Under the pieces are notes generated by a model. That model ran no database searches and was not told where the DNA came from. It saw only the letters and a program-made list of their open reading frames with translations. From positions 10,465 through 74,464 of the forward strand of contig CAZLHP010000003.1 in assembly GCA_964559755.1 (NCBI GenBank): DNA of 64,000 bases, in the 5' to 3' direction. The translations under genes were made by a program, and so were the position numbers. This DNA is from an uncultured Candidatus Saccharibacteria bacterium. GTDB taxonomy: Bacteria > Patescibacteriota > Minisyncoccia > Phycocordibacterales > UBA6065. Below, piece by piece: positions 1 to 64,000 of the stretch (position 1 is its first letter; every line of letters begins with the position of its first letter).

Positions 1-342
1 TTAGCAACAATTACTTTATGTTTTTTACGACAAACATATTTCCGGACACGTTTTCGTAATGAGTAAAAACAAGCAGGAGTCTTTGAATCACATCGGGTGC
101 CCACAGACACAGGATGTTCGGAACACTGCCATGAAAGAGCGTTCATGAGGGAGATTTACGCTTAAGCATACCACAAGAGCGTTTCATGGCTACGCTTCGA
201 TTCTCTACCGAGAACCTCGTCTTACAGACGCAGTACCCGCAGTTGGATATTTTGTTTCGCTTCGCTCACAAAATATACTCAACGGGGCTTCGATTCTCTA
301 ACAAGAGCATCTCCATGCTCTTGTTTACCCGCACAATACAAA

Positions 343-370
343 ATAGCCCCTTTTGGGGCTATTTTGTATT
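343..370 (-). terminator. Rho-independent terminator downstream of the minus-strand tRNA-Arg/tRNA-Gly pair
   Basis: Perfect 10 bp hairpin aaatagcccc/ggggctattt followed by a T-run on the minus strand. Confidence 0.5.
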
Positions 371-2800: not shown

Positions 2801-2830
2801 AAAAACGGCTTAACAAAGCCGTTTTTTGCT
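2801..2830 (+). terminator. Rho-independent terminator after cca
   Basis: aaacggctt-aacaa-agccgtttttt hairpin plus T-run. Confidence 0.7.
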
Positions 2831-2866
2831 TTGTTTCCCGTGAAACACTTCTTTAAAACAAAAAAC

Positions 2867-23363: not shown

Positions 23364-25172
23364 ATGGGACTATTTGATTTTTTAAAACCAAAACGCCAAG
23401 GATCGCTCGTAGCACCAGTACTCCCTCAACAAATCTATGAGGCTGGTATTCTAGAGCTCAAAGACGTTATTGCGCCCTCAGCACTCAAGGTCACACCTCG
23501 CGAACTCAATCTAGGAGACAAAATTTGTCGAAGTTTTTTTGTTATATCATATCCACGCTTTCTCACAGAGAGCTGGTTTGCTCCGATCATTAACTTAGAT
23601 AAGGTTTTTAACATATCGATATTCATTCATCCTGTTGAAACAGCAAAGGTTCTCCGTCAGTTTCAGAAAAAAGTGGCTGAAGTACAGAGCCAGATAAACA
23701 TCAGAGAGCAAAAAGGACTTGTGCGTGACCCTATGCTCGATACTGCATACCAAGACCTCGAATCTCTCCGTGACCAGTTGCAACAAGCCCAAGAAAAACT
23801 TTTTGATGTAGGGCTCTACATCACCATCTACGCAGATACTGAGGCAGATCTCGACAAAACAGAGTCGGAGGTTAAATCAATACTTGAATCAAAGCTTGTC
23901 TATGTAAAACCAGCACTTTTTCAACAAGAGCAAGGTTTCCGCTCAAATATCCCCACCGCATCTGACGAGCTTGTTGTACATTCAAAACTCAACTCATCTC
24001 CACTTTCAAGTCTTTTTCCTTTTATTTCATTCGACCTTACGTCCGACAAGGGTATTCTCTATGGAATCAACAGGCACAACTCTTCACTCGTTCTGTTCGA
24101 CCGATTTTCCCTTGAAAACTACAACTCTATAACATTTGCAAAGTCTGGATCAGGTAAATCATATACAACAAAGCTGGAGATATTGAGAACCCTCATGTTT
24201 GATACAGAAGTCATCGTAATAGACCCTGAAAGGGAGTATGAGTACCTTGCCGAAGCGACAGGAGGAAAGTATTTCAACATTTCTCTCAATTCCGAGCATC
24301 ACATCAATCCATTTGAACTTCCTATCGCGCGTGAAGATGAATCTCCTGCAGACGTTTTGAGGTCAAACATTATCAATCTCGTGGGACTCTTTCGTATTAT
24401 GATGGGAGGACTCTCTCCCGAAGAGGACGCGATCATTGATCGTGCTATCACCGAGACCTACGCACTCAAAGACATCACTCCTGATTCTGATTTTGCAAAC
24501 ATAGAACCACCACTTCTTTCTGATTTTGAACTTGTCCTTGCTGGCATGGAGGGAGGGGAGTCTCTCGTGCAACGGCTCACAAAATACACCAAGGGTACCT
24601 GGTCAGGATTCATCAATCGTCCAACAAACGTAGATATCAGTGCAAAATTCATAGTGTTCTCTCTTCGCGACATGGAAGACGAGTTAAAACCAGTAGCAAT
24701 GTATATCGTGACTCACTATATATGGAATGCTGTTCGCAAAAACCTCAAAAAACGCCTCCTTGTTATCGATGAGGCTTGGTGGATGATGCGTTCTGAGGAT
24801 ACTGCATCATTCCTCCTCGGCATGGCGAAACGTGGACGTAAATACTTCCTAGGTCTTGCAACTATCACACAAGACGTTGATGACTTTATGAAATCACCTT
24901 ATGGATTGCCTATTGTTACCAACTCATCTATTCAGATACTCCTCAAACAGTCTCCTTCATCTATCGACAGGCTTCAGCAAACATTCAACCTCACCGATGA
25001 AGAAAAGTACCTTCTTCTCGAGTCAGATGTTGGTGAGGGTATCTTCTTTGTGGGACTAAAACACGTAGCAATCAAAATAATTGCGTCCTATACAGAAGAC
25101 CAAATCATCACCTCAGACCCCTCTCAGCTTTTGGCAATAAAACAAGCGAGAAAGACGGCCGAAGGACTCTAA
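23364..25172 (+). CDS. VirB4/TraE/Orf16-like ATPase, C-terminal fragment carrying the ATPase domain
   Basis: Resumes the homology where the N-fragment stops (FDFLKPKRQGS...DVIAPSALKVTPRELNLGDKICRSFFVISYP); Walker A FAKSGSGKSYTTK, Walker B LLVIDEAWWMM. Confidence 0.75.
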   Translation: MGLFDFLKPKRQGSLVAPVLPQQIYEAGILELKDVIAPSALKVTPRELNLGDKICRSFFVISYPRFLTESWFAPIINLDKVFNISIFIHPVETAKVLRQFQKKVAEVQSQINIREQKGLVRDPMLDTAYQDLESLRDQLQQAQEKLFDVGLYITIYADTEADLDKTESEVKSILESKLVYVKPALFQQEQGFRSNIPTASDELVVHSKLNSSPLSSLFPFISFDLTSDKGILYGINRHNSSLVLFDRFSLENYNSITFAKSGSGKSYTTKLEILRTLMFDTEVIVIDPEREYEYLAEATGGKYFNISLNSEHHINPFELPIAREDESPADVLRSNIINLVGLFRIMMGGLSPEEDAIIDRAITETYALKDITPDSDFANIEPPLLSDFELVLAGMEGGESLVQRLTKYTKGTWSGFINRPTNVDISAKFIVFSLRDMEDELKPVAMYIVTHYIWNAVRKNLKKRLLVIDEAWWMMRSEDTASFLLGMAKRGRKYFLGLATITQDVDDFMKSPYGLPIVTNSSIQILLKQSPSSIDRLQQTFNLTDEEKYLLLESDVGEGIFFVGLKHVAIKIIASYTEDQIITSDPSQLLAIKQARKTAEGL

Positions 25173-25211
25173 AAAAGAAAAAACGAATCAAAAACACACC
25201 TTCCACATGGT

Positions 25212-26243
25212 GTGTTTTGCGTCATGAGCTTTGTGATATACTTATGCAGTATGGTTCGCACACCACTCATATTTTTTTTATCGTTTTTATTTTTCGCTCT
25301 TTCACCGTCTCTTTATGCGCAAACCCCACCAGGAAGTGGGGGAGTGAGTATCAGTCTCGTTCCTGAAAACCCAAAACCCAACCAGACCGTTACAGTAAAA
25401 ACTCAAAGCTTTAGCACAAATCTTGATAATGCGACTTTTAAATGGTCGGTGAACGGAAAAGTCGTTGCAGAAGGTGTTGGCATGAAACAATTTGATGCGC
25501 AAACAGGAAAAAGTGGATCAATCACAAGTATTCAAGTTGAAATAAGCACTCAAAACCTGGGCGTAATCCGCGACAGCATAACTTTTCGACCAACAGAAGT
25601 AACGCTCCTGTGGGAATCCGATGGTTACCTTCCTCCTTTTTACAAAGGAAGAGCTTTCTACACACTCGGAGGATCACTCAAGGTGGTAGCAATACCTGAG
25701 TTTTTTAGTTCACAAGGAAAAAGGATGAATCCAAAGGATCTTGTATACACATGGAAAAAGAACGGCGAGGTTGTTGCAGACGCTTCGGGATACGGAAAAG
25801 ATTTCTTTATTTCAGACAAAACATCATACCTACGAGATGGTAATGATATAAGCGTAGAGGTTTCAAGTCCCCGAGAGAACATTACAGGAGGAGCATCACT
25901 AGTTGTTGAACCACAACAACTAGAAATACTCATGTATGAAAAGAGCCCTCTCTATGGAATACTTTTTAATAAAAATCTCCCAACGTCGTTCAGTCTTACC
26001 AACGAAGAAATAACTCTCTATGCGGTACCTTTCTTTTTCTCAACACAAACACAATCCTTAGGGGAACTTTCTTTTGAGTGGACAATGAACAACAACCCTA
26101 TCCGAAATGCTGCAGGTAGCAACGAGTTAACCCTACGAAAAGAAACGGGACAAGTAGGTAGCTCAGACATCGGCCTAACAATTCAACACCCTCGCAAGGT
26201 GCTTCAGGGAACAACTATGAAGACTCGCATACTTTTTCAATAA
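25212..26243 (+). CDS. Secreted hypothetical protein (signal peptide, beta-rich)
   Basis: ORF with a hydrophobic N-terminus ...FFALSPSLYAQ. Confidence 0.4.
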   Translation: MFCVMSFVIYLCSMVRTPLIFFLSFLFFALSPSLYAQTPPGSGGVSISLVPENPKPNQTVTVKTQSFSTNLDNATFKWSVNGKVVAEGVGMKQFDAQTGKSGSITSIQVEISTQNLGVIRDSITFRPTEVTLLWESDGYLPPFYKGRAFYTLGGSLKVVAIPEFFSSQGKRMNPKDLVYTWKKNGEVVADASGYGKDFFISDKTSYLRDGNDISVEVSSPRENITGGASLVVEPQQLEILMYEKSPLYGILFNKNLPTSFSLTNEEITLYAVPFFFSTQTQSLGELSFEWTMNNNPIRNAAGSNELTLRKETGQVGSSDIGLTIQHPRKVLQGTTMKTRILFQ

Positions 26244-26246
26244 CAC

Positions 26247-27395
26247 ATGAATACGTATTTTAAAAGAATTACCTTAGGAGTCTGTATTTTTTTAGGACTT
26301 TGTTTGTATACAAGTGTTTTTGCTCTTGATTACATACCCCTTACCACCATTCCAGGTGTTACTGTAAAAGGTACTGCCCTGAGGACTCCCCAAAACCTCG
26401 TCCTTGGTATATATACAGCTTCAATAGGTATTGCATCAATTCTTGCAGTCATCATGGTCATTATTGGTGGTATAAAATACACCACAATGGAATCCTTCAA
26501 TGCAAAAACTGATGCAAAAAAACAAATAACATCAGCCTTCCTAGGACTTGTACTTCTCCTTGGTTCATACCTTCTCCTGAGAACAATAAACAAAGACCTT
26601 GTTGAGTTTGATACAAAACTACCTTCATCAGGAGGACAAGGCCTTGAAAGATTAAGCGCAGAAAGAGAGGCTATTAATGTTCAAATACACGACCTAAGAA
26701 GAAGCTATGCCGCCGCAGACGCAAAAACAAAAACTGCTCGAGAAGAAGCAGCAACCCTCCTTGCTGAAAAAAACACCCTTACTGCACGTTACAACATCAT
26801 AGGCGACAAGAACTCTCCTGAAGCAATAGAGCTGGCTAGACAAATAACATCAATCACATCAAGACATGCAAGCAAAACACAAGAAGTCGCGGATCTTGAT
26901 AATGCGGCCCAGAAACTTAGACGTGATGGTTTAGCCCTTATATATACACAACAAATACGAACGGAGCTCTCTGCTGGAAATTTTGATGTGGCAAATGATA
27001 TACTTCAGAAAACTATTAATCTAGAGCAACAAAAAATACAACTGCTCAAGGACCAAAACGCCCCTCAAGAAGAAATTCAAAAAGCTGAAGTAAACAAGAC
27101 CCACACTGTTGCACAGCTATCTTCAGAAGCAGACACGGCGCGAGCACTAAACGAACTCGGTAAAAACCTTGTATCAATAGACAAAACCAAGGTTACAGAA
27201 TTACGCATAAAAATAATGGCAGATGCTCTCAGGGCGGTTTCTTCTATTAACCAGACAGATCCGACAAAAGCGGCCGCTCTACGAAAAGAGGCACTTGATA
27301 ACATCAAAAAAATCGACGATGCTTTAAATGCTAAATATAGATGCACACAATCAACAACACCGACTTTTGAAACCTTAGGAACTTGTAGTATTTAA
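26247..27395 (+). CDS. VirB2/TrbC-like pilin-type N-terminus fused to a long coiled-coil C-terminal region
   Basis: Signal/TM, then LVLGIYTASIGIASILAVIMVIIGGIKYT ... ITSAFLGLVLLLGSYLLL (two hydrophobic helices as in T4SS pilins), then about 270 aa of heptad-rich sequence. Confidence 0.4.
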   Translation: MNTYFKRITLGVCIFLGLCLYTSVFALDYIPLTTIPGVTVKGTALRTPQNLVLGIYTASIGIASILAVIMVIIGGIKYTTMESFNAKTDAKKQITSAFLGLVLLLGSYLLLRTINKDLVEFDTKLPSSGGQGLERLSAEREAINVQIHDLRRSYAAADAKTKTAREEAATLLAEKNTLTARYNIIGDKNSPEAIELARQITSITSRHASKTQEVADLDNAAQKLRRDGLALIYTQQIRTELSAGNFDVANDILQKTINLEQQKIQLLKDQNAPQEEIQKAEVNKTHTVAQLSSEADTARALNELGKNLVSIDKTKVTELRIKIMADALRAVSSINQTDPTKAAALRKEALDNIKKIDDALNAKYRCTQSTTPTFETLGTCSI

Positions 27396-29448: not shown

Positions 29449-29784
29449 CTAGAGAATTGAACCTTTTTTAAGAAGAGAAAGTAGCGTTTCTCTCATAGTA
29501 AACACGTCGAGATCTAGAGACTTCTTAACAACAAAAACAACGTCAAATGAGGGCTTAACCTCATCAAGAACCGAAAGAAGTACGTTATAACCGGCCCTGC
29601 GTATAGCATTTCTCTTTACAGCGGTCTTCACAGCTTTTGAAGAAACTGAGAAAGCAAAGCGTGTTGGCGCCGTATCTTGCCTTTTTATATACACGAGAGA
29701 AATCTCTTGTCCAAAGACGCTTTTCCCTGACGCAAATACGTTCTTAAGTAGGGAAGTAGTGAGTCTTCTATTTTTTACTAACAT
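29449..29784 (-). CDS. rnpA: Ribonuclease P protein component
   Basis: 111 aa basic protein; RNase P protein pattern; conserved rpmH-rnpA-yidC order. Confidence 0.8.
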   Translation of the reverse strand: MLVKNRRLTTSLLKNVFASGKSVFGQEISLVYIKRQDTAPTRFAFSVSSKAVKTAVKRNAIRRAGYNVLLSVLDEVKPSFDVVFVVKKSLDLDVFTMRETLLSLLKKGSIL

Positions 29785-29793
29785 AGTAGAGAA

Positions 29794-29928
29794 CTATACA
29801 CCGAGCTTCTTTCGGCCTTTGTGCATTCGTCTCTTTATAGTCTTTCGTCCTCCTTTGGTTTTAGTTCGAGAAAGGAAGCCGTGAGCACGAGCATGTTTTC
29901 TATTTTTTGGTTTATATACGATTGCCAT
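29794..29928 (-). CDS. rpmH: 50S ribosomal protein L34 (absent from the ORF track because it is under 60 aa)
   Basis: The reverse complement translates to MAIVYKPKNRKHARAHGFLSRTKTKGGRKTIKRRMHKGRKKLGV*. Confidence 0.85.
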   Translation of the reverse strand: MAIVYKPKNRKHARAHGFLSRTKTKGGRKTIKRRMHKGRKKLGV

Positions 29929-30079
29929 AAATGAATGGTTTATTTTAAAACAAAATCTTTCTGAACAAAAATATTCTTATTAACAGATTGTTCACATATT
30001 ATTAACATATTTACTCATTTTCCACAAGTATTAAAATTCCATTAAGCCTTTATACTTAGTCTCAACCAAACACACAACT

Positions 30080-31426
30080 ATGTCTGAAACAAAAAAAATT
30101 TGGGATGGTGTACTCGGTGAAATAGAACTCCAAGTTTCAAAAGCAAACTTCAACACATGGTTCAGGGATACTTTTATATCAAAAATAGACGATGGCGTGG
30201 TTCACGTTGCAGTGCCAAACGCTTTTGTACGAGACTGGCTCCTCAATAAATATCATAAATGCATCCTCAAGAGCTTGAGAGATAGCGGTAAAGACATCAG
30301 ATCTGTTGAATATAATATTTCTAAGTCGGATAGTAAAAAACAAGAAACCGAAATTATTCGAAAGGTTTCTCCTACAAACGAGCTTCCTCTTCAGGATTTT
30401 TATATAAACAAAGAAGACAATCTCAACCCTCGTTATACCTTTGAATCCTTTATTGTAGGGCCTTTCAACGAACTTGCTCACGCGGCATCACAAGCAGTGC
30501 TTAAAAAACCAGGTATTTCCTACAATCCGCTCTTCATTTATGGCGACACAGGAAGAGGAAAGACTCACCTCATCCAGTCAGTAGGGAACTATCTCAAAAA
30601 TAACGGCTCTAATTCAAAGGTTATTTATGTGACTTCAGAAAAATTTGTTGTTGATTACGTCAACGCTGTTCAAGGTGGAAAAATGAACCTTTTTAAAGAA
30701 AAGTATAGAAAATATGATGTGTTCATCATGGACGATACGCAATTTCTTTCAGGAAAAGAGAAATGCCAGGAAGAACTCTTTCACCTTTTCAATACTTTTT
30801 ACGACAATAATAAACAAATTATCTTTTCCTCTGATAGGCACCCGAACTATATAGATAATCTTGAGGATCGTCTCAAATCTCGTTTTGCTGCGGGTATGAT
30901 TGTTGATATTTCTGCACCAGATCATGAATCTCGTATGGCAATACTCAAAACAAAAGCTAAAGTTAACAATGTTTTTGTTGATGATCAGATTTTAGACTTC
31001 ATTGCTTCAAATATAGAAGGGAATATCCGTGAACTTGAGGGTATTTTCAACTCTATTGTGATGCAAACACAACTAAAACAGAGAACATTGAACCTTATTG
31101 AGGTAAAAAACCTTATAAAAGACTCCTCAAAACCAAAAAAGTCGCTCTCAGTGAAAGAAATAGTCAAAATAGTCTCTGATTATTACAACGTTGAAGAGAA
31201 TTTTATCTATGAAAAGACAAGAAAGAAGGAGATTGTTAAACCTAGGCAGATTATTATGTATCTTTTAAGAGAAGATATGAATATTTCATACCCTTCGATA
31301 GGAGAGAAGCTTGGTGGCAGAGACCACACGACTGTTATACACTCATGTGAGAAGATAAAAGAAGACATAAAGACAAACAACCTTCTTTCTCAGGAGTTAA
31401 GCCATATCCGCTCCCTCATGTTTTAA
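30080..31426 (+). CDS. dnaA: Chromosomal replication initiator DnaA
   Basis: N-terminal domain, AAA+ Walker A GDTGRGKTHL, and the C-terminal DNA-binding signature. Confidence 0.95.
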   Translation: MSETKKIWDGVLGEIELQVSKANFNTWFRDTFISKIDDGVVHVAVPNAFVRDWLLNKYHKCILKSLRDSGKDIRSVEYNISKSDSKKQETEIIRKVSPTNELPLQDFYINKEDNLNPRYTFESFIVGPFNELAHAASQAVLKKPGISYNPLFIYGDTGRGKTHLIQSVGNYLKNNGSNSKVIYVTSEKFVVDYVNAVQGGKMNLFKEKYRKYDVFIMDDTQFLSGKEKCQEELFHLFNTFYDNNKQIIFSSDRHPNYIDNLEDRLKSRFAAGMIVDISAPDHESRMAILKTKAKVNNVFVDDQILDFIASNIEGNIRELEGIFNSIVMQTQLKQRTLNLIEVKNLIKDSSKPKKSLSVKEIVKIVSDYYNVEENFIYEKTRKKEIVKPRQIIMYLLREDMNISYPSIGEKLGGRDHTTVIHSCEKIKEDIKTNNLLSQELSHIRSLMF

Positions 31427-31656
31427 GTGGATAACCTTGGGGATAAGTATGTGGATTGCTGTGAATTAACCTGGGTATGAAATGTTGAGTACTGACCCTT
31501 TATTCACAGAGTAAAAAATCATCCACTTTATCAACGTTTTTTATGCACAGTGAGGTAGGGTATAAAACAATCGAAAAGTGCTTAAAAATAAGGCTTTGAG
31601 AGCTATCCCCACAAGTCACAGGTATTATAATAATAATAGACTTATATAATAAGATT
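31427..31656 (+). promoter_or_regulatory. Putative oriC: DnaA-box cluster plus an AT-rich unwinding element between dnaA and dnaN
   Basis: Boxes agtggataa (revcomp TTATCCACT), ttattcaca, ttatgcaca, tatccccaca, tgtggattg; AT-rich ttataataataatagacttatataataa next to dnaN; a TTTTCCACA box also upstream of dnaA at about 30019. Confidence 0.6.
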
Positions 31657-32757
31657 ATGAAGCTAGACTGTGTAAAAGAAAAAATCACCGAAGGAATCAA
31701 TCGAGTTGAGAAGACTACGGGAAAGAATCTCAATCTTCCTATTCTTTCTTGCGTACTTCTCAAAACTGATAAGAATAATCTTATTATCAGATCAACTAAT
31801 CTTGATATTGGTGTTGAAGTTTCAATACCTGCAAAAGTTCATAGAGAAGGAAGTGTTGCTGTTTCAGGATCAATCCTTGCTTCTTTCTTGGCATGTGTAA
31901 AAAATGAAAAAAACATTACCCTCGAACTTGTTGATGGTAATTTGGTTATAAAAACAAATTCTTTATCAACAACAATAAAAGCTCAATCTTCTGAAGATTT
32001 TCCTACACTACCTCAAGTAGGGAAGGAAAAGACTTTTACAATAAACCCTGCTGTTTTTGTAACAGGATTAAAACATGTTTGGTACGCAGCTTCTCATTCA
32101 ACAGTAAAGCCAGAACTCGCTAGTGTATACGTACACCCGTATGACGACTCTCTTGTTTTTGTTTCAACAGACTCTTTTCGCTTGGCTGAGAAAAAAATGC
32201 GTGCCAAAGACGTAAAAGACTTTACTCCTGTTATTATTCCTTCAAAAAACATAGGCGATATTATACGTATCCTTGAAACCGTTGATGAGGATGTTGAAAT
32301 TTTGTTTGATAAAAATCAAATTGCTTTCGAAGCTTCTGGTTTGTATCTCGTCTCACGAGTTATTGATGGAACATTTCCTGATTATCGACAAATTATTCCT
32401 AAAAATCATTCCACGGAAGTTATTGCGCTCAAAGCTGACGTTGTCGACTCGTTTAAAGGCTCAAATATCTTCTCAGACAAGTTTAATCAGATACACATGA
32501 CAGTTCTACCGCATGACAAGGTTTTTGAGATTAAAACGAACAACAGCGACATTGGAGAGTATGTTCAAAAAGTAGATTCTTCTCTTTCTGGTGAAAATAT
32601 TGAAATGAACTTTAATCACAAATATATTGCAGATTCTTTTCAATCTCTCGATTCAGATAGTATCTCCTTTACTTTTAATGGACAAAATAAGCCTTTGATC
32701 ATTCAGGGAGTATCTGACAAGTCCTTTTTGTACCTTGTAATGCCTATGAATAAATAG
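31657..32757 (+). CDS. dnaN: DNA polymerase III beta sliding clamp
   Basis: 366 aa with the three-domain clamp pattern; conserved dnaA-dnaN synteny. Confidence 0.9.
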   Translation: MKLDCVKEKITEGINRVEKTTGKNLNLPILSCVLLKTDKNNLIIRSTNLDIGVEVSIPAKVHREGSVAVSGSILASFLACVKNEKNITLELVDGNLVIKTNSLSTTIKAQSSEDFPTLPQVGKEKTFTINPAVFVTGLKHVWYAASHSTVKPELASVYVHPYDDSLVFVSTDSFRLAEKKMRAKDVKDFTPVIIPSKNIGDIIRILETVDEDVEILFDKNQIAFEASGLYLVSRVIDGTFPDYRQIIPKNHSTEVIALKADVVDSFKGSNIFSDKFNQIHMTVLPHDKVFEIKTNNSDIGEYVQKVDSSLSGENIEMNFNHKYIADSFQSLDSDSISFTFNGQNKPLIIQGVSDKSFLYLVMPMNK

Positions 32758-37069: not shown

Positions 37070-37167
37070 ATAACAGTCAGTGTTTAATTTTTTTACGGGA
37101 CGAATCTATTTTTAGCAGATTCGTTTTTGTTTGTGAAGACCCACGCTCTGTGGAAAAGTTTTTTCAA

Positions 37168-37392
37168 AAAGCCGGAGCCTGACGAGGCGAGGATGGGTCG
37201 CAGAAATTTTCACCAGAAAATTATCTGTGACAGCGAGTTCGTTAGAACCGCTCACTTGCGAAGCACGTGAGATATGGGGTGGGTCCCATATCGTAAAGCC
37301 GGAGCCTGACGAGGCGAGGATGGGTCGCAGAAATTTTCACCAGAAAATTATCTGTGACAGCGAGTTCGTTAGAACCGCTCACTTGCGAAGCA
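37168..37392. repeat. Perfect 98 nt tandem direct repeat (copies 37168-37265 and 37295-37392, 29 nt spacer); copy 2 contains the last 8 codons of ruvC
   Basis: Both copies read aaagccggagcctgacgaggcgaggatgggtcgcagaaattttcaccagaaaattatctgtgacagcgagttcgttagaaccgctcacttgcgaagca. Confidence 0.7.
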
Positions 37393-49526: not shown

Positions 49527-49939
49527 CCAGCTTGAGAAGGAGTTGGAGTTGTTCGTTTGGTTTTTCTTCGTGCGTGTTGTGGCAATGACAGGTGCATCTC
49601 CAGCCACCGTATACACCCGGGGGAGAACTTTGACCAATTGCGCAGAGCGAGTGGTCACCTTTTTCACATTCAGGAGTGATTCGTAGGAATACCATAGTTA
49701 GGGGAGCATTCTTTCCTAAGGGTACTTGAGGCGGAGAGGAAGTCAACGGAGAGGGAGGGGTAGCTGGATATCGATCGTTACGGGGTCAGAATCAGTGTTG
49801 GAATCTCCCGCGCCTCTCAACTCGCCGTCGCTCGTTTCGGGCTGGGCACCAGCTCGCATGATTTTTTACTAAAAATCATTGGCTCCGCTGTTCGATTCCA
49901 AACGCGAGCAAAATTGTTTGCTCGCTCTAGCCACACAAA

Positions 49940-49966
49940 AACCGCCCGAAGGCGGTTTGTTTTTTG
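49940..49966 (-). terminator. Terminator downstream of the minus-strand tRNA-Lys
   Basis: aaaccgcc-ttcg-ggcggttt followed by a T-run on the minus strand. Confidence 0.6.
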
Positions 49967-56012: not shown

Positions 56013-56026
56013 CAAAAAAACAAAAA

Positions 56027-56046
56027 CAGCGAAGGCTGTTTTTTTT
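56027..56046 (+). terminator. Terminator after tRNA-Arg(GCG)
   Basis: cagc-gaag-gctg followed by tttttttt. Confidence 0.55.
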
Positions 56047-56159
56047 GCGCTCTCGAGAAGGCGTGGGGCGCCTTCGTATAGGAATCGAAAAGGTTCTCCC
56101 ATATTTTTGAGGATTTCCATCCGAAAAAATGGGAAACCTATACTGTCGCTGTAAGCGAA

Positions 56160-56177
56160 GATTTCCTATCGAGAGTA
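56160..56177 (+). repeat. Direct repeat of the tRNA-Arg(GCG) 3' end (att-like), about 150 nt downstream of the tRNA
   Basis: gatttcctatcgagagta matches tRNA positions 57-72 (gattcctatcgagagca) with one insertion; inverted partial copies ataggaatcgaa at 56071-56082 and 56197-56208. Confidence 0.55.
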
Positions 56178-56247
56178 CGGGGTGCTTTCTTATAGGAATC
56201 GAATTTGTATCGTTTAAGGTTTTAGATTAAATGCTAGAATTTATAAT

Positions 56248-57225: not shown

Positions 57226-57420
57226 GAATAGTAGTATAGCAGAAGAGGGGTGGAGGGGAGAGATTTAGGAGAGGAGAGAGATTCGGTCGTTACACGACCA
57301 GTATCCCGATTGGCGCGAATACGCGACTCAATCGGGCTTCGAATCTCACACGCAAGCGTCTCCACGCTTGCTCCTATTCGCATAAAAAAATCACACCGTT
57401 GCCGGTGGATTTTTATAATG

Positions 57421-59337: not shown

Positions 59338-59464
59338 ATTGTTGAAGATTCCTGTATGTAAACAAGAGAGGGTGTAGTATACTTTTTACATGGCTTCAGG
59401 TTCTAAAACATCTTCACATTTCAAAAATTTTCAGTCGATTTTTCCACCACCACGTTTTCTGCTT

Positions 59465-60478
59465 ATGTCGCGGATCGGTGTGGATATTTCAAATGGGTTT
59501 CTCAGGCATGTGCGTTTTGAGGACTCGCTCAAAGGTATAAAACTCGCATCATGGGAACAAAAAAACATTTCTCGTTTTGATCCAGACGGTATTTCAGATC
59601 CAGAGCGTGATGATCTCAAGAAAAAAATTGTCGCCCTCAAAGGTGAGCTCGGGACAAACACGGTTCGTGTGGTGATCCCCGATGACGAAGTGTATCTCTT
59701 TCGTATCACTATTCCTTATACAGAAGGGGAGGATCTTCGAAGTGCTGTCGAGTTTAAGCTTGAGGAAAACCTACCTATCGCACCGTCTGATACTTTGTTT
59801 GAGTACGATGTTGTTGGTACTAATCAAGCAGGAACAATAACGCTTTCTGTTTCTGCGGTGTCTCGAGCTTTTGTTTCAAAGATGCTTGAGTTTTTTCAGT
59901 CATGTGGTCTCGATCCCATACGAGCAGACACGGAGGCGCGTTGTTTGGCGCGGTCTCTATCAAAACAGACAGCAGAGGATGTTGAGCTCATTGTTTCAAT
60001 AAGCGGTTTTAGTACTTCTTTTATTATCGCTCGTTCAGGCAAGCCTCTTTTTAGCTCAAACACTCCTATTGGCTCAAAGGATATCAGTCAGGCAATCGCC
60101 AAATCCTTTTCTCTTTCTGAGGTTGAGGCTGAGAAAATGAGAAAACAAAATCTTTCAACTCCTTATACGGATAACGTTGAGTTTCTCAATGGTATTTTGC
60201 CGGTAATGGCTTCTCTCAAGGATGAAATAAACAAGGTGATTGTGTACTGGAACACACACGGAGAAACTCATGAGGGACTCGGTCCCGTGTCGAGAGTGAT
60301 ACTTGCCGGAGAGGACGCAGCTCTCTCTGGTGTTGTGAGGTATGTTGGTAGTGGCGTTTCTGTGCCTGTCGTTTTAGGTGATGTGTGGACAAACATTCTC
60401 TCGTTCAAGGAATACATCCCAAAGATAACCAAGGACGAATCGCTATCGTACGGCGCCGTTGTAGGAATTTGTTTTTAA
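59465..60478 (+). CDS. pilM: Type IV pilus assembly protein PilM-like (actin/FtsA-fold)
   Basis: RIGVDISNGFLRHVRF... and operon with PilN/PilO-like genes; the start could be upstream at 59390. Confidence 0.55.
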   Translation: MSRIGVDISNGFLRHVRFEDSLKGIKLASWEQKNISRFDPDGISDPERDDLKKKIVALKGELGTNTVRVVIPDDEVYLFRITIPYTEGEDLRSAVEFKLEENLPIAPSDTLFEYDVVGTNQAGTITLSVSAVSRAFVSKMLEFFQSCGLDPIRADTEARCLARSLSKQTAEDVELIVSISGFSTSFIIARSGKPLFSSNTPIGSKDISQAIAKSFSLSEVEAEKMRKQNLSTPYTDNVEFLNGILPVMASLKDEINKVIVYWNTHGETHEGLGPVSRVILAGEDAALSGVVRYVGSGVSVPVVLGDVWTNILSFKEYIPKITKDESLSYGAVVGICF

Positions 60479-60482
60479 CTAT

Positions 60483-61019
60483 ATGTTCGATTTTCTTCCT
60501 CAAGATTTCAAGATAAAAGCACGTCGTCTCTACCGAGGCAGGCTTATGCTCTTGTACGTGTGTGCAGGGTGCATACTTTTTCTCGTATCTTTTTTGTTGT
60601 TGTTGCCTTCACAAATGCTTGCGCTCGCAAAAAAGAAGAGCCTCGAAGGGGAGCTCTCTGCACTCAAACAGTCTCTCTCTATAAAAGGGAATAGTACCGT
60701 AGAGAGTTTTGTTGATGCCTCAAAGGAAAAAATGTCTGTTGTTGAGCGTACAGAAGGAGTAAAACTCTTTAGTGATTCTCTCTCGGAATTTTTTTCATAT
60801 TACACACCCGGTATTTCTCTCAATTCTGTAACGTTCGAGCGCGCAGAAAAACAAAACATTATACGAGTATCTGGTGTAGCACAGACTCGAGACGCACTCT
60901 TGGAATTTTCAAAGTCTCTCAAGTCAAACCATCGTTTTGAAAGCGTGGATCTGCCTGTGTCGAATCTCGCTCGTAATAAAGACATTGATTTTTCAATCAC
61001 CGTAATGGAAAACATCTAA
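60483..61019 (+). CDS. pilN: PilN-like single-TM pilus assembly protein
   Basis: Basic N-terminus, one TM, periplasmic coiled-coil; size and position after pilM. Confidence 0.45.
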   Translation: MFDFLPQDFKIKARRLYRGRLMLLYVCAGCILFLVSFLLLLPSQMLALAKKKSLEGELSALKQSLSIKGNSTVESFVDASKEKMSVVERTEGVKLFSDSLSEFFSYYTPGISLNSVTFERAEKQNIIRVSGVAQTRDALLEFSKSLKSNHRFESVDLPVSNLARNKDIDFSITVMENI

Positions 61020-61023
61020 CATT

Positions 61024-61560
61024 ATGAAATCCTTTTTTCAAAAAACATTTAGCATTGTCATTGCGAGTATAACCATTATCGTGCTCGGTGCGTGGGGATA
61101 TTTTCTCTACGTAGTTCGTGCAAATCAAAATGAAATAGTGGCACTCTCTCAAACAATCGTGAACGAAAAAGACAAAAGTGGGCGATTGGCATCTGTACGT
61201 GCTCTCGCTATAAATATTGAAGAAGACATAAAAAAACTCGATGATGTGTTCATTGCGAGCGACGACGTGGCTTCTTTTGTTGAATTACTTGAGACCGAGG
61301 CGGACGCTTCGAATGCTTCAATTTCTATTGGCTCAATAAACGTAGACGACAAAGTTAAAGGCTCGGTACAACCTCTCGTTGTGCGTATTGAGGCCGAGGG
61401 TTCTTGGGGAAGCATACTTTCCTATGTAACTCGCCTTGAACATTTGCCCAAGACGATACAAATCAATAAGGTTATACTGACAAAAGCAGAGGCGAGAGAG
61501 TCAAAAGCTCGCGTGTGGAGATTGCAGGCAGATGTCACTACTCATGTTGTCAAAAAATAA
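61024..61560 (+). CDS. pilO: PilO-like single-TM pilus assembly protein
   Basis: One TM plus a coiled-coil periplasmic domain; position. Confidence 0.4.
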   Translation: MKSFFQKTFSIVIASITIIVLGAWGYFLYVVRANQNEIVALSQTIVNEKDKSGRLASVRALAINIEEDIKKLDDVFIASDDVASFVELLETEADASNASISIGSINVDDKVKGSVQPLVVRIEAEGSWGSILSYVTRLEHLPKTIQINKVILTKAEARESKARVWRLQADVTTHVVKK

Positions 61561-61868
61561 TGAAATTTCTAACTTTTTTTAAAAAAATAAAGAATAGTTT
61601 TTCTGGGTTAGGCTCAAACCCTCTCAAGGATTGGTTTTTGCTTCTCGCTCTTTTTGCTTTCTTTTTTGTGACGTCACTTACATTTCATGCCGTGGTTTTC
61701 TTTGCTGTAGATTCGAGTGATCAGGTTGTTGCCACATCCACGTCGTCTGTTCTTGAAACTCTCGATAGAGAGAGGCTCAAGAATGTGCTGAAAAAGATTG
61801 ATGAGCGTATCACAAATGGGGTAGGGGCCGAGGAATCCATACAAAAGCTTTCTGACCCGTCCCTCTAG
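61560..61868 (+). CDS. Small single-TM membrane protein (PilP-position)
   Basis: The ATG overlaps the pilO-like stop (taATGa); one TM helix. Confidence 0.3.
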   Translation: MKFLTFFKKIKNSFSGLGSNPLKDWFLLLALFAFFFVTSLTFHAVVFFAVDSSDQVVATSTSSVLETLDRERLKNVLKKIDERITNGVGAEESIQKLSDPSL

Positions 61869-61903
61869 CTTTCATTCGTTTTTCGGATAGTATACGTATA
61901 TAA

Positions 61904-61976
61904 CCCCTTGTAGTTCAATGGATCAGAACAGCGGACTTCTAAGCCGTTAATGTTGGTTCGATTCCAACCGAGGGGA
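61904..61976 (+). tRNA. tRNA-Arg(TCT) (anticodon stem has an A31-G39 mismatch)
   Basis: CCCCTTG...GTTCAATGGATCAGAAC-A-GCGGA-CTTCTAA-GCCGT-TAAT-GTTGGTTCGATTCCAAC-CGAGGGG-A. Confidence 0.6.
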
Positions 61977-62107
61977 CAAGTGTTAAGAAAAAGTGAACTG
62001 CTTCACTTTTTTAACTTGTCCCAATCGCAGCGATGTTGCTTTGCAACCGCGAGATGGGGTCGCGAGTACTTAGTAGAATTCGAGCTCTGCGAAGAATTAT
62101 ACTTAGT

Positions 62108-62293
62108 AACTTGTGACGACAAGACAAAAAATATCCAATCGTGGGTACTGGTTGTGTAACAACCGATAGGTGTACTCACGTTCCAACCGATCGTGACGAC
62201 AAGAAAAAATATCCTACTTGGAAAACCGTGGGTTTCCCAAATGTTCGATAGCGAAGCGTCCAACCGATTGTGACGACAAGACAAAAAACATCC
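62108..62293 (+). repeat. Three degenerate roughly 30-34 nt direct repeats (62108-62136, 62183-62214, 62260-62293) separated by roughly 45 nt spacers that share cgtgggt: iteron-like
   Basis: ccaaccgat[c/t]gtgacgacaaga(c)aaaaaa[t/c]atcc. Confidence 0.6.
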
Positions 62294-62340
62294 AACCGAA
62301 AAACGATAAGGTAAATTTTTTTACTATTTTTTCTCCATGT

Positions 62341-62385
62341 ACCACCATCACCAACTCTTACGACCGTGAAGGTTGGTGATGGTGG
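62341..62385 (+). other. Perfect 14 bp-stem hairpin followed by an A6-G9 tract
   Basis: accaccatcaccaac - tcttacgaccgtgaag - gttggtgatggtgg; then aaaaaagaggggggggg. Confidence 0.6.
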
Positions 62386-62602
62386 AAAAAAGAGGGGGGG
62401 GGTGAAAAATCTTGTGGTTACGCATATTTTCTCACCGTCGTTCGAAAATTGAGGAAACCGGTATATCTTGTGGTCAGGAATAATTATTCGCCGTCGCAAA
62501 TAATTTTCCCGACCCGACCTCGCGGTTTTTTGAAGCAAAAAAACATCGCTGCGGTTCGCACAAACTAAAAACCTGCCGCAGGGCAGATTTTTTTCACGCT
62601 TG

Positions 62603-62675
62603 TGCGCCCTGAGGGACTTGAACCCCCGACCTTATCAGTGTAAATGATCTGCTCTACCAACTGAGCTAAGGGCGC
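62603..62675 (-). tRNA. tRNA-Val(TAC)
   Basis: Reverse complement GCGCCCTTAGCTCAGTTGGTAGAGCA-GATCA-TTTACAC-TGATA-AGGTC-GGGGGTTCAAGTCCCTC-AGGGCGC-A; a terminator hairpin ctgcc-gcag-ggcag lies downstream on the minus strand. Confidence 0.75.
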
Positions 62676-62790
62676 GTGTGTATAACTATATATACTATTA
62701 CTTTTCAAACATCAACTATCAAAGACTATCTTACATTAACGTATTTATCAAGAAACTGTTCGTTTGGTGTTTTTGTGGTATGGTCAATAC

Positions 62791-63519
62791 ATGACTATAG
62801 ACGTTATATACGAAGACGACTCAACCCTCGTGCTCGCCAAGCCCGCGGGCCTTGTGGTACATAGCGATGGAAGGACGGAGGAGGCTACACTCACTTCATG
62901 GCTTCTCAAGACATATCCATATCTACAGGGTGTGGGTGGTACGGTGCGTATTGACTCAGGTTCTGAAGAACCTCGTGTGGGTATTGTGCATCGCCTCGAT
63001 AGAGAGACGTCGGGTGTGATTCTCGTTGCAAAGACAGAAGAAGCTTTTGCTTTTTATCAGGAGCAATTCAAGGGAAGGGAAGTTAAAAAAATATACCAAG
63101 GTATTGTGTGGGGAAGCATGAAGGAAGACATCGGCACCATAAATCGTCCCCTTGGTCGTAGTACAAAAGATTTTCGTATGAGAGTGGTTGGTTCTCAAGC
63201 GAGAGGAACGCTCCGTGAGGCAATTACAAAATACCGCGTTCTCGAGAGGGCTAATGGTTTTTCTTTTGTTGAGTTTTATCTTTTGACAGGACGCACACAT
63301 CAGATTCGTGCTCACATGAGATCAGCAGGCTATCCTCTCGTTTCGGACTCTCTCTATGGTATGGCAGACAAAGGTGAGGCTCTCGGTATACAGAGGGTTG
63401 CTCTCCATGCACTATCACTTCATTTCACTCTTTTGTCAGGGAAAGAAATTGACGTTAAAGCCCCATATCCTCTCGATTTTGTGCAGGCTCTCGAGTCCAT
63501 GCGAAAAGGGAACCTCTAG
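62791..63519 (+). CDS. RluA-family pseudouridine synthase (RluD-like, no S4 domain)
   Basis: VLAKPAGLVVHS...GIVHRLDRETSGVILVAKT catalytic-Asp motif. Confidence 0.8.
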   Translation: MTIDVIYEDDSTLVLAKPAGLVVHSDGRTEEATLTSWLLKTYPYLQGVGGTVRIDSGSEEPRVGIVHRLDRETSGVILVAKTEEAFAFYQEQFKGREVKKIYQGIVWGSMKEDIGTINRPLGRSTKDFRMRVVGSQARGTLREAITKYRVLERANGFSFVEFYLLTGRTHQIRAHMRSAGYPLVSDSLYGMADKGEALGIQRVALHALSLHFTLLSGKEIDVKAPYPLDFVQALESMRKGNL

Positions 63520-63570
63520 AAAAGGAAGGCCTTGCGAATGCTCAAAGCCTGTGTTAGATTAAGCACCTAT

Positions 63571-63966
63571 ATGAAAAGCGCAGTAAAAACATCACCGGTA
63601 AACATGGAGGAACGAAAGAAACTTGGTCTTCGTTCTGGAGACACTATTCGTGTGTGGCAGAAAATTAAAGAAGGCGATAAGACTCGTCTTCAGGCTTTTG
63701 AGGGTCTTGTTTTGTCTCGAAAACACGGTGACGAAGCAGGTGCAACATTCACTGTTCGAAAAGTAGTAGACGGTGTGGGCGTGGAAAGAATTTTTCCTCT
63801 CTATTCTCCTATAATTGATGAGATTGAGATCGTTCGTCGTTCAGAAGTTCGTCGCTCAAAGTTGTACTTTATCCGCGAGAAGGCTTCAAAGGAAATCCGC
63901 CGTCAGATGAGCAAGGAACGCTCAATGAAGGAGGTAGAAACAAAAACAGAAGAAGTTGCAGCATAA
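63571..63966 (+). CDS. rplS: 50S ribosomal protein L19
   Basis: [25 protein letters not shown]...[31 protein letters not shown]. Confidence 0.85.
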
Positions 63967-64000
63967 CAAATTCCGCCTCTGGCGGTTTTTTGTTTAAAGC

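What the first reader, a model, noticed from the sequence alone, without database searches (positions are those of the whole stretch)
61977..62602. 620 nt non-coding region between two tRNAs with iteron-like repeats, a perfect 14 bp hairpin and a G9 tract
Between tRNA-Arg(TCT) and tRNA-Val(TAC) lie three roughly 30-34 nt degenerate direct repeats, ccaaccgatYgtgacgacaaga(c)aaaaaaYatcc, at about 76 nt periodicity; the roughly 45 nt spacers share cgtgggt. A perfect hairpin follows (accaccatcaccaac / gttggtgatggtgg) with an A6-G9 homopolymer run, then a further AT-rich segment. Regularly spaced, imperfect repeats with a GC-clamped hairpin are reminiscent of plasmid or phage replication-origin iterons or a partition (parS-like) site. 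They could also be the attachment region of an excised element at a tRNA hotspot.
Basis: seen in the sequence. Interest (0 to 1): 0.5.

Follow-up and report, generated by a model that had tools for sequence, protein, structure and literature searches.

The report
Stacked tRNA-linked palindromic insertion modules
The 620-base gap between two tRNA genes is not a replication origin or partition site but a strain-variable pile-up of small, gene-less hairpin modules that sit behind almost every tRNA gene of this tiny (CPR/Paceibacterota) bacterium and carry copies of the tRNA's own 3' end, the signature of repeated site-specific insertion into tRNA genes.

Summary
In detail: three degenerate direct repeats, a perfect 14-bp hairpin and an A6-GA-G9 tract lie between tRNA-Arg(TCT) and tRNA-Val(TAC). 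The origin/partition reading fails. dnaA-dnaN, a DnaA-box cluster and the GC-skew minimum lie about 30 kb away, parS-like sites lie at 1.4-2.8 kb, and no Rep or ParB gene is in the window. Three related species with the same synteny have only 19-48 nt between these two tRNAs. Strains of this species differ in module copy number (1-3 of each repeat), in the orientation of the hairpin loop, and in an inserted 231-aa ORF.

The region belongs to a family of ORF-less modular elements that trail 6 of the 7 tRNA genes in the window. Each element runs: terminator, tRNA-specific inverted copy of the tRNA's T-loop-to-3' end, hairpins with constant loops and covarying stems, then a direct copy of the tRNA 3' end (21/21, 15/15 and 18/19 in clean cases). 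The finding is two such arrays meeting head-to-head, and the "iterons" are truncated units.

The best reading is serial site-specific insertion at the tRNA T-loop followed by recombination and decay. I found no matching Rfam family and no description of these elements in three literature searches.

The parts
61904..61977 (+). tRNA-Arg(TCT). Its T-loop-to-3' end (TTCGATTCCAACCGAGGGGA) is the sequence partly copied in the repeats.
61973..62022 (.). Extended terminator-like palindrome that includes the tRNA 3' end (GGGACAAGT...AAAAAGTGAA-CTGC-TTCACTTTTT...ACTTGTCCC).
   Evidence: (I7)
62023..62066 (+). Start of the left array, a 'type B' module (AATCGCAGCGATGTT-hairpin-AACCGCGAG-ATGGGGTCGCGAG). 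It is the left arm of the long-range inverted repeat.
   Evidence: (I1, I3)
62110..62164 (+). Repeat copy 1: CTTGT-GACG-ACAAG hairpin, A-run, then the 3' half of the type A scaffold (CCAATCGTGGGTAC-T, 62135-62149) and hairpin C (GGTTG-TGTAA-CAACC, 62150-62164).
62181..62221 (+). Repeat copy 2. It begins with TTCCAACCGA (a copy of tRNA-Arg T-loop end, T-stem 3' strand and start of the acceptor), followed by the GTGACGACAAGA core.
   Evidence: (D1, D3)
62258..62299 (+). Repeat copy 3 (GTCCAACCGA plus core), followed directly by a fourth ATCCAACCGA.
   Evidence: D1, D3, D8
62341..62385 (.). Perfect 14-bp hairpin at the centre where the two arrays meet. Its 16-nt loop occurs in both orientations among strains. 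It is flanked by T-run/A-run in the non-terminator arrangement.
   Evidence: (I2)
62386..62402 (.). A6-G-A-G9 tract. Its length varies between strains, and it is the insertion point of a 231-aa ORF cassette in strains L052/L055/L056.
62409..62510 (-). Two 56-nt 'D2' hairpin units (CTTGTGGT..GCCGTCG..CGACC), which are the distal part of the type B module trailing tRNA-Val. There are 1-3 copies in other strains. Hairpin 62477-62510 shows four compensatory pairs against L011/L002.
   Evidence: (D2, I5)
62507..62564 (-). Start of the right array (type B module read from tRNA-Val). It is the right arm of the long-range inverted repeat.
62567..62594 (.). Bidirectional terminator behind tRNA-Val, with compensatory changes in L011.
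62602..62675 (-). tRNA-Val(TAC).
200..370 (-). Family member outside the finding: a canonical type A element trailing tRNA-Gly(GCC).
49790..49965 (-). Family member: type B element trailing tRNA-Lys(TTT).
56014..56215 (+). Family member: type C element trailing tRNA-Arg(GCG), ending in an 18/19 direct copy of the tRNA 3' end (56151-56170), followed by the start of a second unit.
57280..57419 (-). Family member: type A element trailing tRNA-Ser(TGA). Strain L020 has a type B element at the same junction.

Best explanation
The segment is a lineage-specific, strain-variable compound array of small ORF-less palindromic modules that occupy the 3' flank of tRNA genes in this Candidatus Paceibacterota lineage. 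One array trails tRNA-Arg(TCT) on the + strand and a second trails tRNA-Val(TAC) on the - strand. They meet at the 14-bp hairpin and G-tract, which is why the region's two ends are inverted repeats of each other.

Shown by the sequences. A complete unit reads: tRNA, terminator hairpin, inverted copy of that tRNA's acceptor 3' strand, hairpin A, inverted copy of its T-stem 3' strand plus T-loop, one of three conserved scaffolds (A, B or C), hairpin C (loop TGTAA), then a direct copy of the tRNA from mid T-loop to the 3' end. The 'iteron-like' repeats are truncated tandem units. Copies 2 and 3, and a fourth site, start with the tRNA-Arg-derived TCCAACCGA.

Inferred mechanism. Units enter by site-specific recombination within the T-loop (after TTC), bringing a replacement tRNA 3' end and terminator and displacing the old 3' end downstream. 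Repeated insertions stack up. Recombination between the repeated and inverted modules then changes copy number, flips segments and deletes parts. The tRNA 3' end, the terminator and the inverted copy together form a forked, almost perfectly Watson-Crick palindrome. This may be the recombination substrate, possibly as folded single-stranded DNA acted on by a recombinase supplied in trans. The region is not an origin of replication or a partition site.
For: Family and architecture. An nhmmer profile of the shared core hits the flanks of tRNA-Gly and tRNA-Ser in the window and of tRNA-Leu, tRNA-His and tRNA-Arg in other contigs. The sequences themselves are read.

Cognate specificity. For 8 canonical elements the neighbouring tRNA's own 3' end gives the best inverted-copy score (17-19 of 20). 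In 6 of the 8 it beats every non-cognate tRNA; in the other two it only ties the same tRNA-Ser sequence scored from a sister strain. Shuffles reach the score 0-1 times in 1000, and the copies sit at fixed offsets. Unusual T-loops are mirrored: L026 Leu TGCGAGT/ACTTGCA and L020 His TCCGATT/AATCGGA.

Direct copies at the distal end. These are 21/21 (L021/L058), 15/15 (L047 tRNA-Ser) and 18/19 (window 56151-56170).

Forked palindrome. It forms in 10 of 10 loci at -55 to -75 kcal/mol. G.U pairs are only 7/409 and 6/405 on the two strands.

Covarying stems with constant loops. Hairpin C has 8 distinct 5-bp stems. Hairpin A has a different stem in each of the 10 loci folded.

Lineage restriction. 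The Arg(TCT)-Val gap is 46, 48 and 19 nt in L036, L045 and L048. No cognate inverted copy is found at the 16 tRNAs of those three species.

Strain variation at the finding. D1 is present in 3, 2 or 1 copies and D2 in 2, 1 or 3. The hairpin loop is flipped in some strains. L040 has a type A start where the window has type B. L052, L055 and L056 carry an extra 231-aa ORF, and L002 has a different neighbouring gene. At tRNA-Ser, type A (window) and type B (L020) elements sit at the same right junction CC|GAATCTC. tRNA-Arg(TCT) is inverted in L027, L045 and L048.

Precedent. tRNA-flanking islands built by successive integrations that leave partial tRNAs are described for tycheposons (bioRxiv 10.1101/2020.12.28.424599).
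Against: No recombinase, transposase or Rep gene lies in or next to any unit. The only recombinase seen in the window is a Xer-family gene 57 kb away, which looks like a housekeeping gene.

No excised form and no precise empty site within one species was seen. The empty sites come from species whose intergenic DNA is too diverged to define exact boundaries.

Inside the finding region itself the cognate inverted copies are missing (13 of 20, chance level). The tRNA-derived direct copies there are only 9-10 nt, which would be weak evidence on their own.

The same scaffold type sits at orthologous tRNAs in species with only 78% identical L19 (type C at Arg(GCG) in the window and in L047), with compensatory changes in its stems. 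This indicates long vertical persistence and selection on structure, not only recent mobility.

Two type B cores at 37160-37365 have no tRNA next to them.
Confidence: 0.6

Rival explanations
1. The units are structured non-coding RNAs, co-transcribed with or processed from tRNA precursors. They might regulate tRNA 3' maturation or act as tRNA-linked small RNAs, and the region would be a multi-module RNA locus.
For: Predicted folding is extreme (z -9.5 and -10.9). Loops are conserved while stems covary between paralogues and between species. The position directly behind tRNA genes resembles some large RNAs (from my own knowledge). Type and position persist across species.
Against: No Rfam family matches at E up to 10. 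A terminator separates every tRNA from its unit, and no promoter-like site lies inside 61978-62601. The stems are almost purely Watson-Crick and fold equally well on both strands (1.7% and 1.5% G.U). Architecture and copy number differ between strains whose flanking RluA-like protein is identical. The inverted acceptor copy decays through A.C mismatches and differs between strains. L027's inverted copy matches another species' tRNA-Val allele better than its own (19 versus 16). The family is absent from three related species.
Confidence: 0.15
2. The units are REP/BIME-like or MITE-like palindromic repeats moved by a transposase (RAYT or IS200/IS605-type, or a DDE enzyme) encoded elsewhere, and they merely accumulate in safe intergenic sites such as tRNA flanks.
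For: The structure is a mosaic of short palindromic modules in alternating orientation. The long terminal inverted repeat gives the whole region a MITE-like look. Two type B cores lie away from any tRNA. Assemblies break in the region.
Against: Apart from the two tandem type B cores at 37160-37365, every copy in 64 kb lies directly behind a tRNA gene. Units carry sequence specific to the adjacent tRNA in both orientations, which transposon ends do not. There are no short target-site duplications of fixed length. No Y1 or DDE transposase domain was found in the 40 window ORFs of at least 150 aa that were scanned. The 'terminal inverted repeat' is explained by two convergent units.
Confidence: 0.12
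3. The region holds decayed remains of duplicated tRNA genes (tandem and inverted pseudo-tRNAs) with no mobility and no function. The 77-80 nt period would reflect tRNA gene length.
For: The period is close to tRNA length. Many fragments resemble T-arm or acceptor sequence. Convergent and tandem tRNA pairs are native to these genomes.
Against: No partial tRNA hits were found in the region even at E up to 10. The non-tRNA scaffolds (A, B, C) and the loops are conserved across different tRNAs and species. Hairpin A is inserted at the same point (the acceptor/T-stem junction) in copies of seven different tRNA identities (Gly, Ser, Lys, Arg, Leu, His, Val). Different scaffold types occupy the same site in different strains.
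Confidence: 0.08
4. The repeats are plasmid/phage-type replication-origin iterons or a partition (parS-like) centromere.
For: Regularly spaced direct repeats sit next to an AT-rich stretch and a hairpin.
Against: See the membership rows. oriC is at 31.4 kb. parS-like sites lie at 1.4-2.8 kb. No Rep or ParB gene is present. The repeats are 68-94% identical and range from 3 copies down to 1 between strains. The region is absent in relatives. Patterns from the repeat unit and the family core gave no real hit in viral contigs, and the few short-pattern matches were unrelated chance hits.
Confidence: 0.02

Closest known systems
tRNA-targeted integrative elements and the islands of their remnants, for example tycheposons of Prochlorococcus (bioRxiv 10.1101/2020.12.28.424599), and cis-mobilizable/decayed derivatives (CIMEs; from my own knowledge)
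   Same: They sit at the 3' side of tRNA genes. The inserted DNA is bounded by a direct copy of the tRNA 3' segment. Successive insertions push older ones outward and leave partial tRNAs. The host is a streamlined genome with hypervariable tRNA-adjacent loci. Cargo genes are occasionally present (the 231-aa ORF in L052).
   Different: The units here are 100-200 nt and ORF-less, with no integrase or its fragments. They carry a tRNA-specific inverted copy forming a forked palindrome with the tRNA 3' end. They share three conserved hairpin scaffolds across at least seven tRNA identities. They occupy nearly every tRNA flank rather than a few islands.
Folded single-strand recombination sites: the CTX-phi/IMEX attP forked hairpin at dif, and integron attC sites (from my own knowledge)
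   Same: Two inverted copies of the target-like sequence, separated by a short spacer, can fold into a duplex that mimics the target. There are side branches or unpaired features. Structure is conserved while stems vary. Short cassettes form arrays. The recombinase could be supplied in trans, and a Xer-family gene is present.
   Different: The target is a tRNA T-loop-to-3' end, not dif or attI. The integron core GTTRRRY is not matched by GTTCRAN. No IntI is present. Single-strandedness and Xer dependence are untested.
Integrase-driven rearrangements between tRNA gene copies in Thermococcales (PLoS Genet 2017, PMC5495485; listed, abstract only read)
   Same: Inverted tRNA-derived att copies are associated with inversions. 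Here tRNA-Arg(TCT) is inverted in L027, L045 and L048, and the hairpin loop is flipped in some strains.
   Different: No plasmid or integrase is linked here, and the scale is far smaller.
REP/BIME mosaics of enterobacteria (from my own knowledge)
   Same: They are intergenic mosaics of short palindromic units in both orientations with variable copy number.
   Different: The units here are tied to tRNA genes, carry tRNA-specific sequence, are not dispersed genome-wide within the 64 kb examined, and no RAYT gene was seen.

Membership tests
Iteron-type replication origin | Several near-identical 17-22 bp direct repeats that bind a Rep protein encoded next to them | tested here: not met
   The repeats are 68-94% identical and about 31 nt long at 77-80 nt spacing. 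No Rep-type domain was found in the 40 window ORFs of at least 150 aa that were scanned.
Iteron-type replication origin | DnaA boxes, an AT-rich unwinding element or a skew switch at the site | tested here: not met
   The DnaA-box cluster at 31426-31549, dnaA-dnaN and the cumulative GC-skew minimum lie at about 30 kb. None is inside 61978-62601.
Iteron-type replication origin | Conservation of the repeat array in close relatives | tested here: not met
   The repeat is present in 3, 2 or 1 copies among strains. The gap is only 19-48 nt in three related species.
parS / ParB centromere | A 16-bp palindrome related to TGTTNCACGTGAAACA, with a parB gene | tested here: not met
   No match with up to 3 mismatches lies in the region. 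Matches cluster at 1363-2847. No ParB domain was found.
CRISPR array | Near-identical repeats, unrelated spacers and cas genes | tested here: not met
   The repeats are 68-94% identical and the spacers share motifs. No Cas domains were found in the ORFs scanned.
Described large or small structured RNAs (Rfam 15, including ROOL, GOLLD, tmRNA, RNase P, 6S) | A match to a curated covariance model | tested here: not met
   Only the two tRNAs match at E up to 10 in 61000-64000. The same holds in four related loci.
Functional single-strand RNA (generic) | A strand-specific structure (G.U pairs on one strand) and a stable architecture | tested here: not met
   G.U pairs are 7/409 versus 6/405 on the two strands. 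Module number and type differ between strains.
tRNA-targeted integrative element (att-flanked insertion) | Location at the 3' part of a tRNA gene that remains intact | tested here: met
   Units trail 6 of the 7 tRNAs in the window. All these tRNAs are called intact.
tRNA-targeted integrative element (att-flanked insertion) | A direct repeat of the tRNA 3' segment at the distal boundary | tested here: met
   The copies are 21/21 (L021/L058), 15/15 (L047 Ser) and 18/19 (window Arg(GCG)). In the finding itself there are only 9-10 nt (TCCAACCGA), present three times.
tRNA-targeted integrative element (att-flanked insertion) | An integrase encoded in the element | tested here: not met
   No conserved ORF lies in any unit. 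Only a distant Xer-family gene is present.
tRNA-targeted integrative element (att-flanked insertion) | Presence/absence polymorphism and an excised circular form | tested here: inconclusive
   There is unit-level presence/absence: a 128-nt unit between 18-nt repeats in locus 2, type A versus type B at tRNA-Ser, and the ORF cassette in L052. Circular junctions cannot be tested without reads.
Integron attC / CALIN | R''/R' core sites (RYYYAAC / GTTRRRY) and an IntI integrase | tested here: not met
   The junction sequence is GTTC|RAWYC, which has C at the fourth position. The best recombinase is Xer-type and falls below the integron-integrase cut-offs.
IMEX / CTX-type folded attP | Inverted target-like copies that fold into a forked hairpin mimicking the target | tested here: met
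   A forked three-way palindrome forms from the tRNA 3' end, the terminator, the inverted copy and hairpin A in 10 of 10 loci.
IMEX / CTX-type folded attP | The target is dif, and recombination is carried out by XerC/D on single-stranded DNA | not testable with these tools
   The target here is a tRNA gene, not dif. Enzyme and strandedness need experiments.
REP/BIME or MITE | Many dispersed copies in unrelated intergenic sites, a fixed-length target duplication, and a cognate transposase | tested here: not met
   All copies but one site are behind tRNAs. No transposase domain was seen. The whole genome was not available.

The most novel reading that the evidence does not exclude
These are active, non-autonomous integrative cassettes of a new kind. 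Each would be a 100-200 nt ORF-less module whose recombination site is a folded, forked hairpin that mimics the 3' end of a specific tRNA gene. It would be inserted at the T-loop by a host-encoded (Xer-type) or otherwise trans-acting recombinase. Such cassettes would colonise nearly every tRNA gene of a streamlined CPR genome and create hypervariable landing pads that occasionally capture cargo genes.
Probability: 0.2. Interest if true: 0.85.

Novelty: new variant of a known kind. Interest (0 to 1): 0.6.

Why it matters
CPR/Patescibacteria genomes are small and gene-dense, and few mobile elements are known in them. A family of gene-less modules that sits behind most tRNA genes, copies each tRNA's 3' end in both orientations and differs between near-identical strains would be a new source of genome plasticity in these organisms. 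It would also be a cause of assembly breaks. If the forked hairpin is a real recombination substrate, it extends structure-based (attC/CTX-like) recombination to tRNA gene targets. Practically, these regions should not be annotated as origins, CRISPR arrays or hypothetical genes: one assembly calls a 171-aa 'gene' across this region.

Tried and rejected
1. Large structured RNA. The closing helix and the z-scores first suggested a roughly 550-nt RNA. I rejected this as the main reading after finding that the 'helix' is two convergent copies of one module, that there is no Rfam hit, that architecture varies between strains and that the palindromes are strand-symmetric and Watson-Crick.

2. Phage or plasmid origin. 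Five pattern scans of viral contigs gave only chance matches or nothing.

3. Wider family search. The single metagenome pattern scan returned only a sister strain and one new species (L020, L021). The genome scan with the RluA-like protein returned one close relative.

4. Empty site for the cleanest insertion (L021). Homologues of its neighbouring gene lie on about 1-kb contigs with different neighbours, so there was no informative comparison.

5. Formal pair-counting tool. The MAFFT alignment put hairpin A and B stems in different registers, so I tallied stems directly and built no covariance model.

6. Literature. Three searches found no description of such elements in CPR. A Gracilibacteria 'hypervariable repeat' paper concerns a coding repeat, and a paper on Patescibacteria tRNA introns does not mention 3' flanks.

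7. The scaffold gap (run of N) in L052 between tRNA-Arg(GCG) and tRNA-Ser is not an empty site.
Full report
OBSERVATION. The window region 61978-62601 lies between tRNA-Arg(tct) (61904-61977, +) and tRNA-Val(tac) (62602-62675, -). The three direct repeats lie at 62111, 62191 and 62268, spaced 80 and 77 nt, and are 68-94% identical. The 14-bp perfect hairpin (62341-62385) and the A6-G-A-G9 run (62386-62402) are also present. The repeat core occurs three times in the 64 kb, only here, against 0.31 expected. Nothing in Rfam matches except the tRNAs. No reading frame survives the strain-to-strain indels of 77, 56 and about 125 nt.

ORGANISM AND CONTEXT. The closest genome record is a Candidatus Paceibacterota MAG. 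The window carries dnaA (30080-31426) and dnaN. Four DnaA-box-like sites lie at 31426-31549, together with the cumulative GC-skew minimum, so the chromosomal origin is about 30 kb away. parS-like palindromes cluster at 1363-2847, and none lies in the region. Pfam scans of 40 of the 47 window ORFs of at least 150 aa (588-54979) show no Rep or ParB domain. The only recombinase is a Xer-family gene at 4372-5295. The origin and partition readings are therefore not supported.

THE REGION IS LINEAGE-SPECIFIC AND HYPERVARIABLE. Related species keep the synteny pil genes - tRNA-Arg(tct) - tRNA-Val - L19. In them the gap between the two tRNAs is 46 nt (L036, a single bidirectional terminator), 48 nt (L045), 19 nt (L048) or 199 nt (L047). 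Among contigs whose flanking RluA-like or L19 proteins are identical or 98-99% identical to the window's, the region varies in several ways:
- The first repeat is present in 3 copies (window, L001), 2 copies (L005, L020) or 1 copy (L011).
- The 56-nt unit is present in 2 copies (window), 1 copy (L011, L004, L002) or 3 copies (L020).
- The AG/G tract changes length.
- The 16-nt loop of the perfect hairpin is reverse-complemented in L011 and L002.
- L040 has a different module directly behind tRNA-Arg.
- L052, L055 and L056 carry a 231-aa ORF of unknown function, with its own promoter and terminator, inserted right after the G-tract.
- L002 has an unrelated HI0933-like gene abutting the hairpin.
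These differences are documented. Many metagenome contigs of this species end inside the region.

A FAMILY OF tRNA-TRAILING MODULES. A motif of the region (AAAATATCCAATCGTGGGTAC-T-hairpin with loop TGTAA, 62128-62164) recurs downstream of tRNA-Leu just beyond the window end. It also recurs behind a tRNA-Arg in another species (L021). A profile built from these sequences hits the flanks of tRNA-Gly (window 215-322, -) and tRNA-Ser (window 57282-57373, -), and of tRNA-His in L026. Reading all tRNA flanks shows one architecture: terminator; inverted copy of the tRNA's acceptor 3' strand; AA/AG; hairpin A (variable stem, loop GGAGA/TGGGAG); inverted copy of T-stem 3' strand plus T-loop; a scaffold; hairpin C (5-bp stem, loop TGTAA); then a direct copy of the tRNA from mid T-loop onward.

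Three scaffold types recur:
- Type A: GAAGCCCGATTGAG - hairpin B - CCAATCGYGGGTAC.
- Type B: CGGAGC - hairpin - CGCGAG - GGGTCG - hairpin around GCGACGGC - GTGACC.
- Type C: AAGGTTCTCCCAT...GGGAAACCTRTAC.
These are shown.

In the window, 6 of the 7 tRNAs are trailed by such units. The seventh, tRNA-Arg(tcg), is followed directly by tRNA-Gly.

THE tRNA-DERIVED PARTS ARE SPECIFIC. For eight canonical units the adjacent tRNA gives the highest inverted-copy score (17-19 of 20). In six of them it exceeds every non-cognate tRNA; in the other two it ties only with the identical tRNA-Ser sequence of a sister strain. Shuffles reach the score 0-1 times in 1000, and the copies sit at fixed offsets (+25 to +39 and +56 to +70). 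Two atypical T-loops are mirrored in their units. Distal direct copies are exact or nearly so in the cleanest cases: 21/21 in L021/L058, 15/15 in L047 tRNA-Ser (tracking that species' own allele), and 18/19 at window 56151-56170. The tRNA 3' end, the terminator, the inverted copy and hairpin A fold into a forked three-way palindrome of -55 to -75 kcal/mol in 10 of 10 loci. Its pairs are almost all Watson-Crick and equally good on both strands (G.U 1.7% and 1.5%). Hairpin C has eight different stems under a constant loop. Type C stems show compensatory changes between the window and L047. Hairpin 62477-62510 shows four compensatory pairs against L011/L002. The family is present in the window species, its sister clade, the L026, L021 and L047 species, and at tRNA-Val of L039. 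No cognate inverted copy is found at any of the 16 tRNAs of L036, L045 and L048.

WHAT THE FINDING IS. The alignment shows that the sequence just after the tRNA-Arg terminator (62023-62066) and the reverse complement of the sequence just after the tRNA-Val terminator (62507-62564) are copies of the same type B start. This explains the 'closing helix'. The left array continues with a type A 3' half and hairpin C (62135-62164). It is followed by truncated units that each begin with TCCAACCGA, which is the tRNA-Arg T-stem 3' strand plus the first acceptor bases. The right array contributes the 56-nt hairpin units. The perfect hairpin and the G-tract mark the meeting point, where extra DNA is inserted in some strains. 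In this particular strain the cognate inverted copies have been lost on both sides (13 of 20). The sister strain L040 still has a canonical type A unit behind tRNA-Arg(tct).

MECHANISM (INFERRED). The combination fits serial site-specific insertion at the T-loop, as described in principle for tRNA-targeting elements and their remnant-filled islands. That combination is: an intact tRNA, an element-borne terminator, a distal direct copy of the tRNA 3' end, stacking of units, different unit types at one junction in different strains (tRNA-Ser), and inversions (tRNA-Arg orientation in L027, L045 and L048). Unusual features here are the absence of any integrase, the 100-200 nt unit size, the conserved scaffolds and the tRNA-specific inverted copy. 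The forked palindrome resembles folded single-strand recombination sites (CTX-type attP, integron attC; from my own knowledge). That link, and any role of the Xer-family enzyme, are untested. Long persistence of the same type at orthologous tRNAs, with compensatory changes in its stems, shows that the structures are maintained, either for the elements' own propagation or for some host use.

RIVALS. A structured-RNA function is not excluded, but several results weigh against it: the terminators, the lack of promoters, strand symmetry, strain-level re-arrangement, and decay of the inverted acceptor copy through A.C mismatches. REP/MITE-type mobility is disfavoured by the tRNA specificity. Simple tRNA-pseudogene decay is disfavoured by the shared non-tRNA scaffolds and by the constant insertion point of hairpin A.

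VERDICT. The origin/partition interpretation is rejected, and the 'attachment region at a tRNA hotspot' idea is broadly right. The region is one instance of a family of tRNA-linked modular palindromic elements in Paceibacterota that I did not find described, neither in Rfam nor in three literature searches.

Noticed in passing
window 29500-31700: Chromosomal origin region: dnaA (30080-31426) and dnaN (31657-32757), four DnaA-box-like sites at 31426-31549, a GC dip to 0.36 and the cumulative GC-skew minimum.
   Followed up: partly
window 1363-2847: A cluster of four or five parS-like palindromes (for example TGTTTCACGGGAAACA at 2832 and GGTTCCACGTGAAACC at 1863), mostly inside the CCA-adding enzyme gene (1286-2800), about 28 kb from oriC. 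No ParB gene was seen in the window.
   Followed up: no
window 37160-37365: Two tandem type B cores (AAGCCGGAGCCTGACGAGGCGAGGATGGGTCGCAG...CTGTGAC) with no tRNA nearby. This is the only family copy in the window not tied to a tRNA gene.
   Followed up: partly
window 62356-62371, compared with L011 and L002: The 16-nt loop of the perfect 14-bp hairpin is found in both orientations among strains. It is a tiny invertible segment or a template-switch product.
   Followed up: partly
L052 8016-8711 (also L055, L056): A strain-specific 231-aa ORF with its own promoter and terminator is inserted after the G-tract. It has no Pfam or NCBIfam match. It is flanked by inverted G7-8/C8 runs.
   Followed up: partly
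L036 5300-6118 (-): An uncalled C-terminal fragment of a large serine recombinase (zinc-ribbon and coiled-coil region, judged by eye from the translation) abuts the 3' end of tRNA-His. It is followed by cation-efflux, ArsP and ArsR-type genes. This is probably a separate integrated element at a tRNA in a species that lacks the small modules.
   Followed up: no
L026 1328-2011; L048 10507-11172: A 221-227 aa ORF with a faint LAGLIDADG_3 hit sits between L19 and tRNA-Leu in two related species. It is absent in the window species.
   Followed up: no
L001 1307-1822 (- strand; corresponds to window about 62003-62538): One metagenome annotation calls a 171-aa 'gene' across the region. The frame is not conserved between strains, so this is a false gene call.
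   Followed up: yes
window 23364-27395: Genes with a TraG/VirB4-like P-loop domain and a T4SS-pilin domain, and a type IV pilus cluster (pilM/N/O-like, 59390-61868) directly upstream of the finding.
   Followed up: no
L027 59-213 compared with window tRNA-Val: The inverted tRNA-Val copy in L027 matches the window species' tRNA-Val allele (19 of 20) better than the adjacent L027 tRNA-Val (16 of 20). The copy therefore preserves a foreign or ancestral allele.
   Followed up: partly
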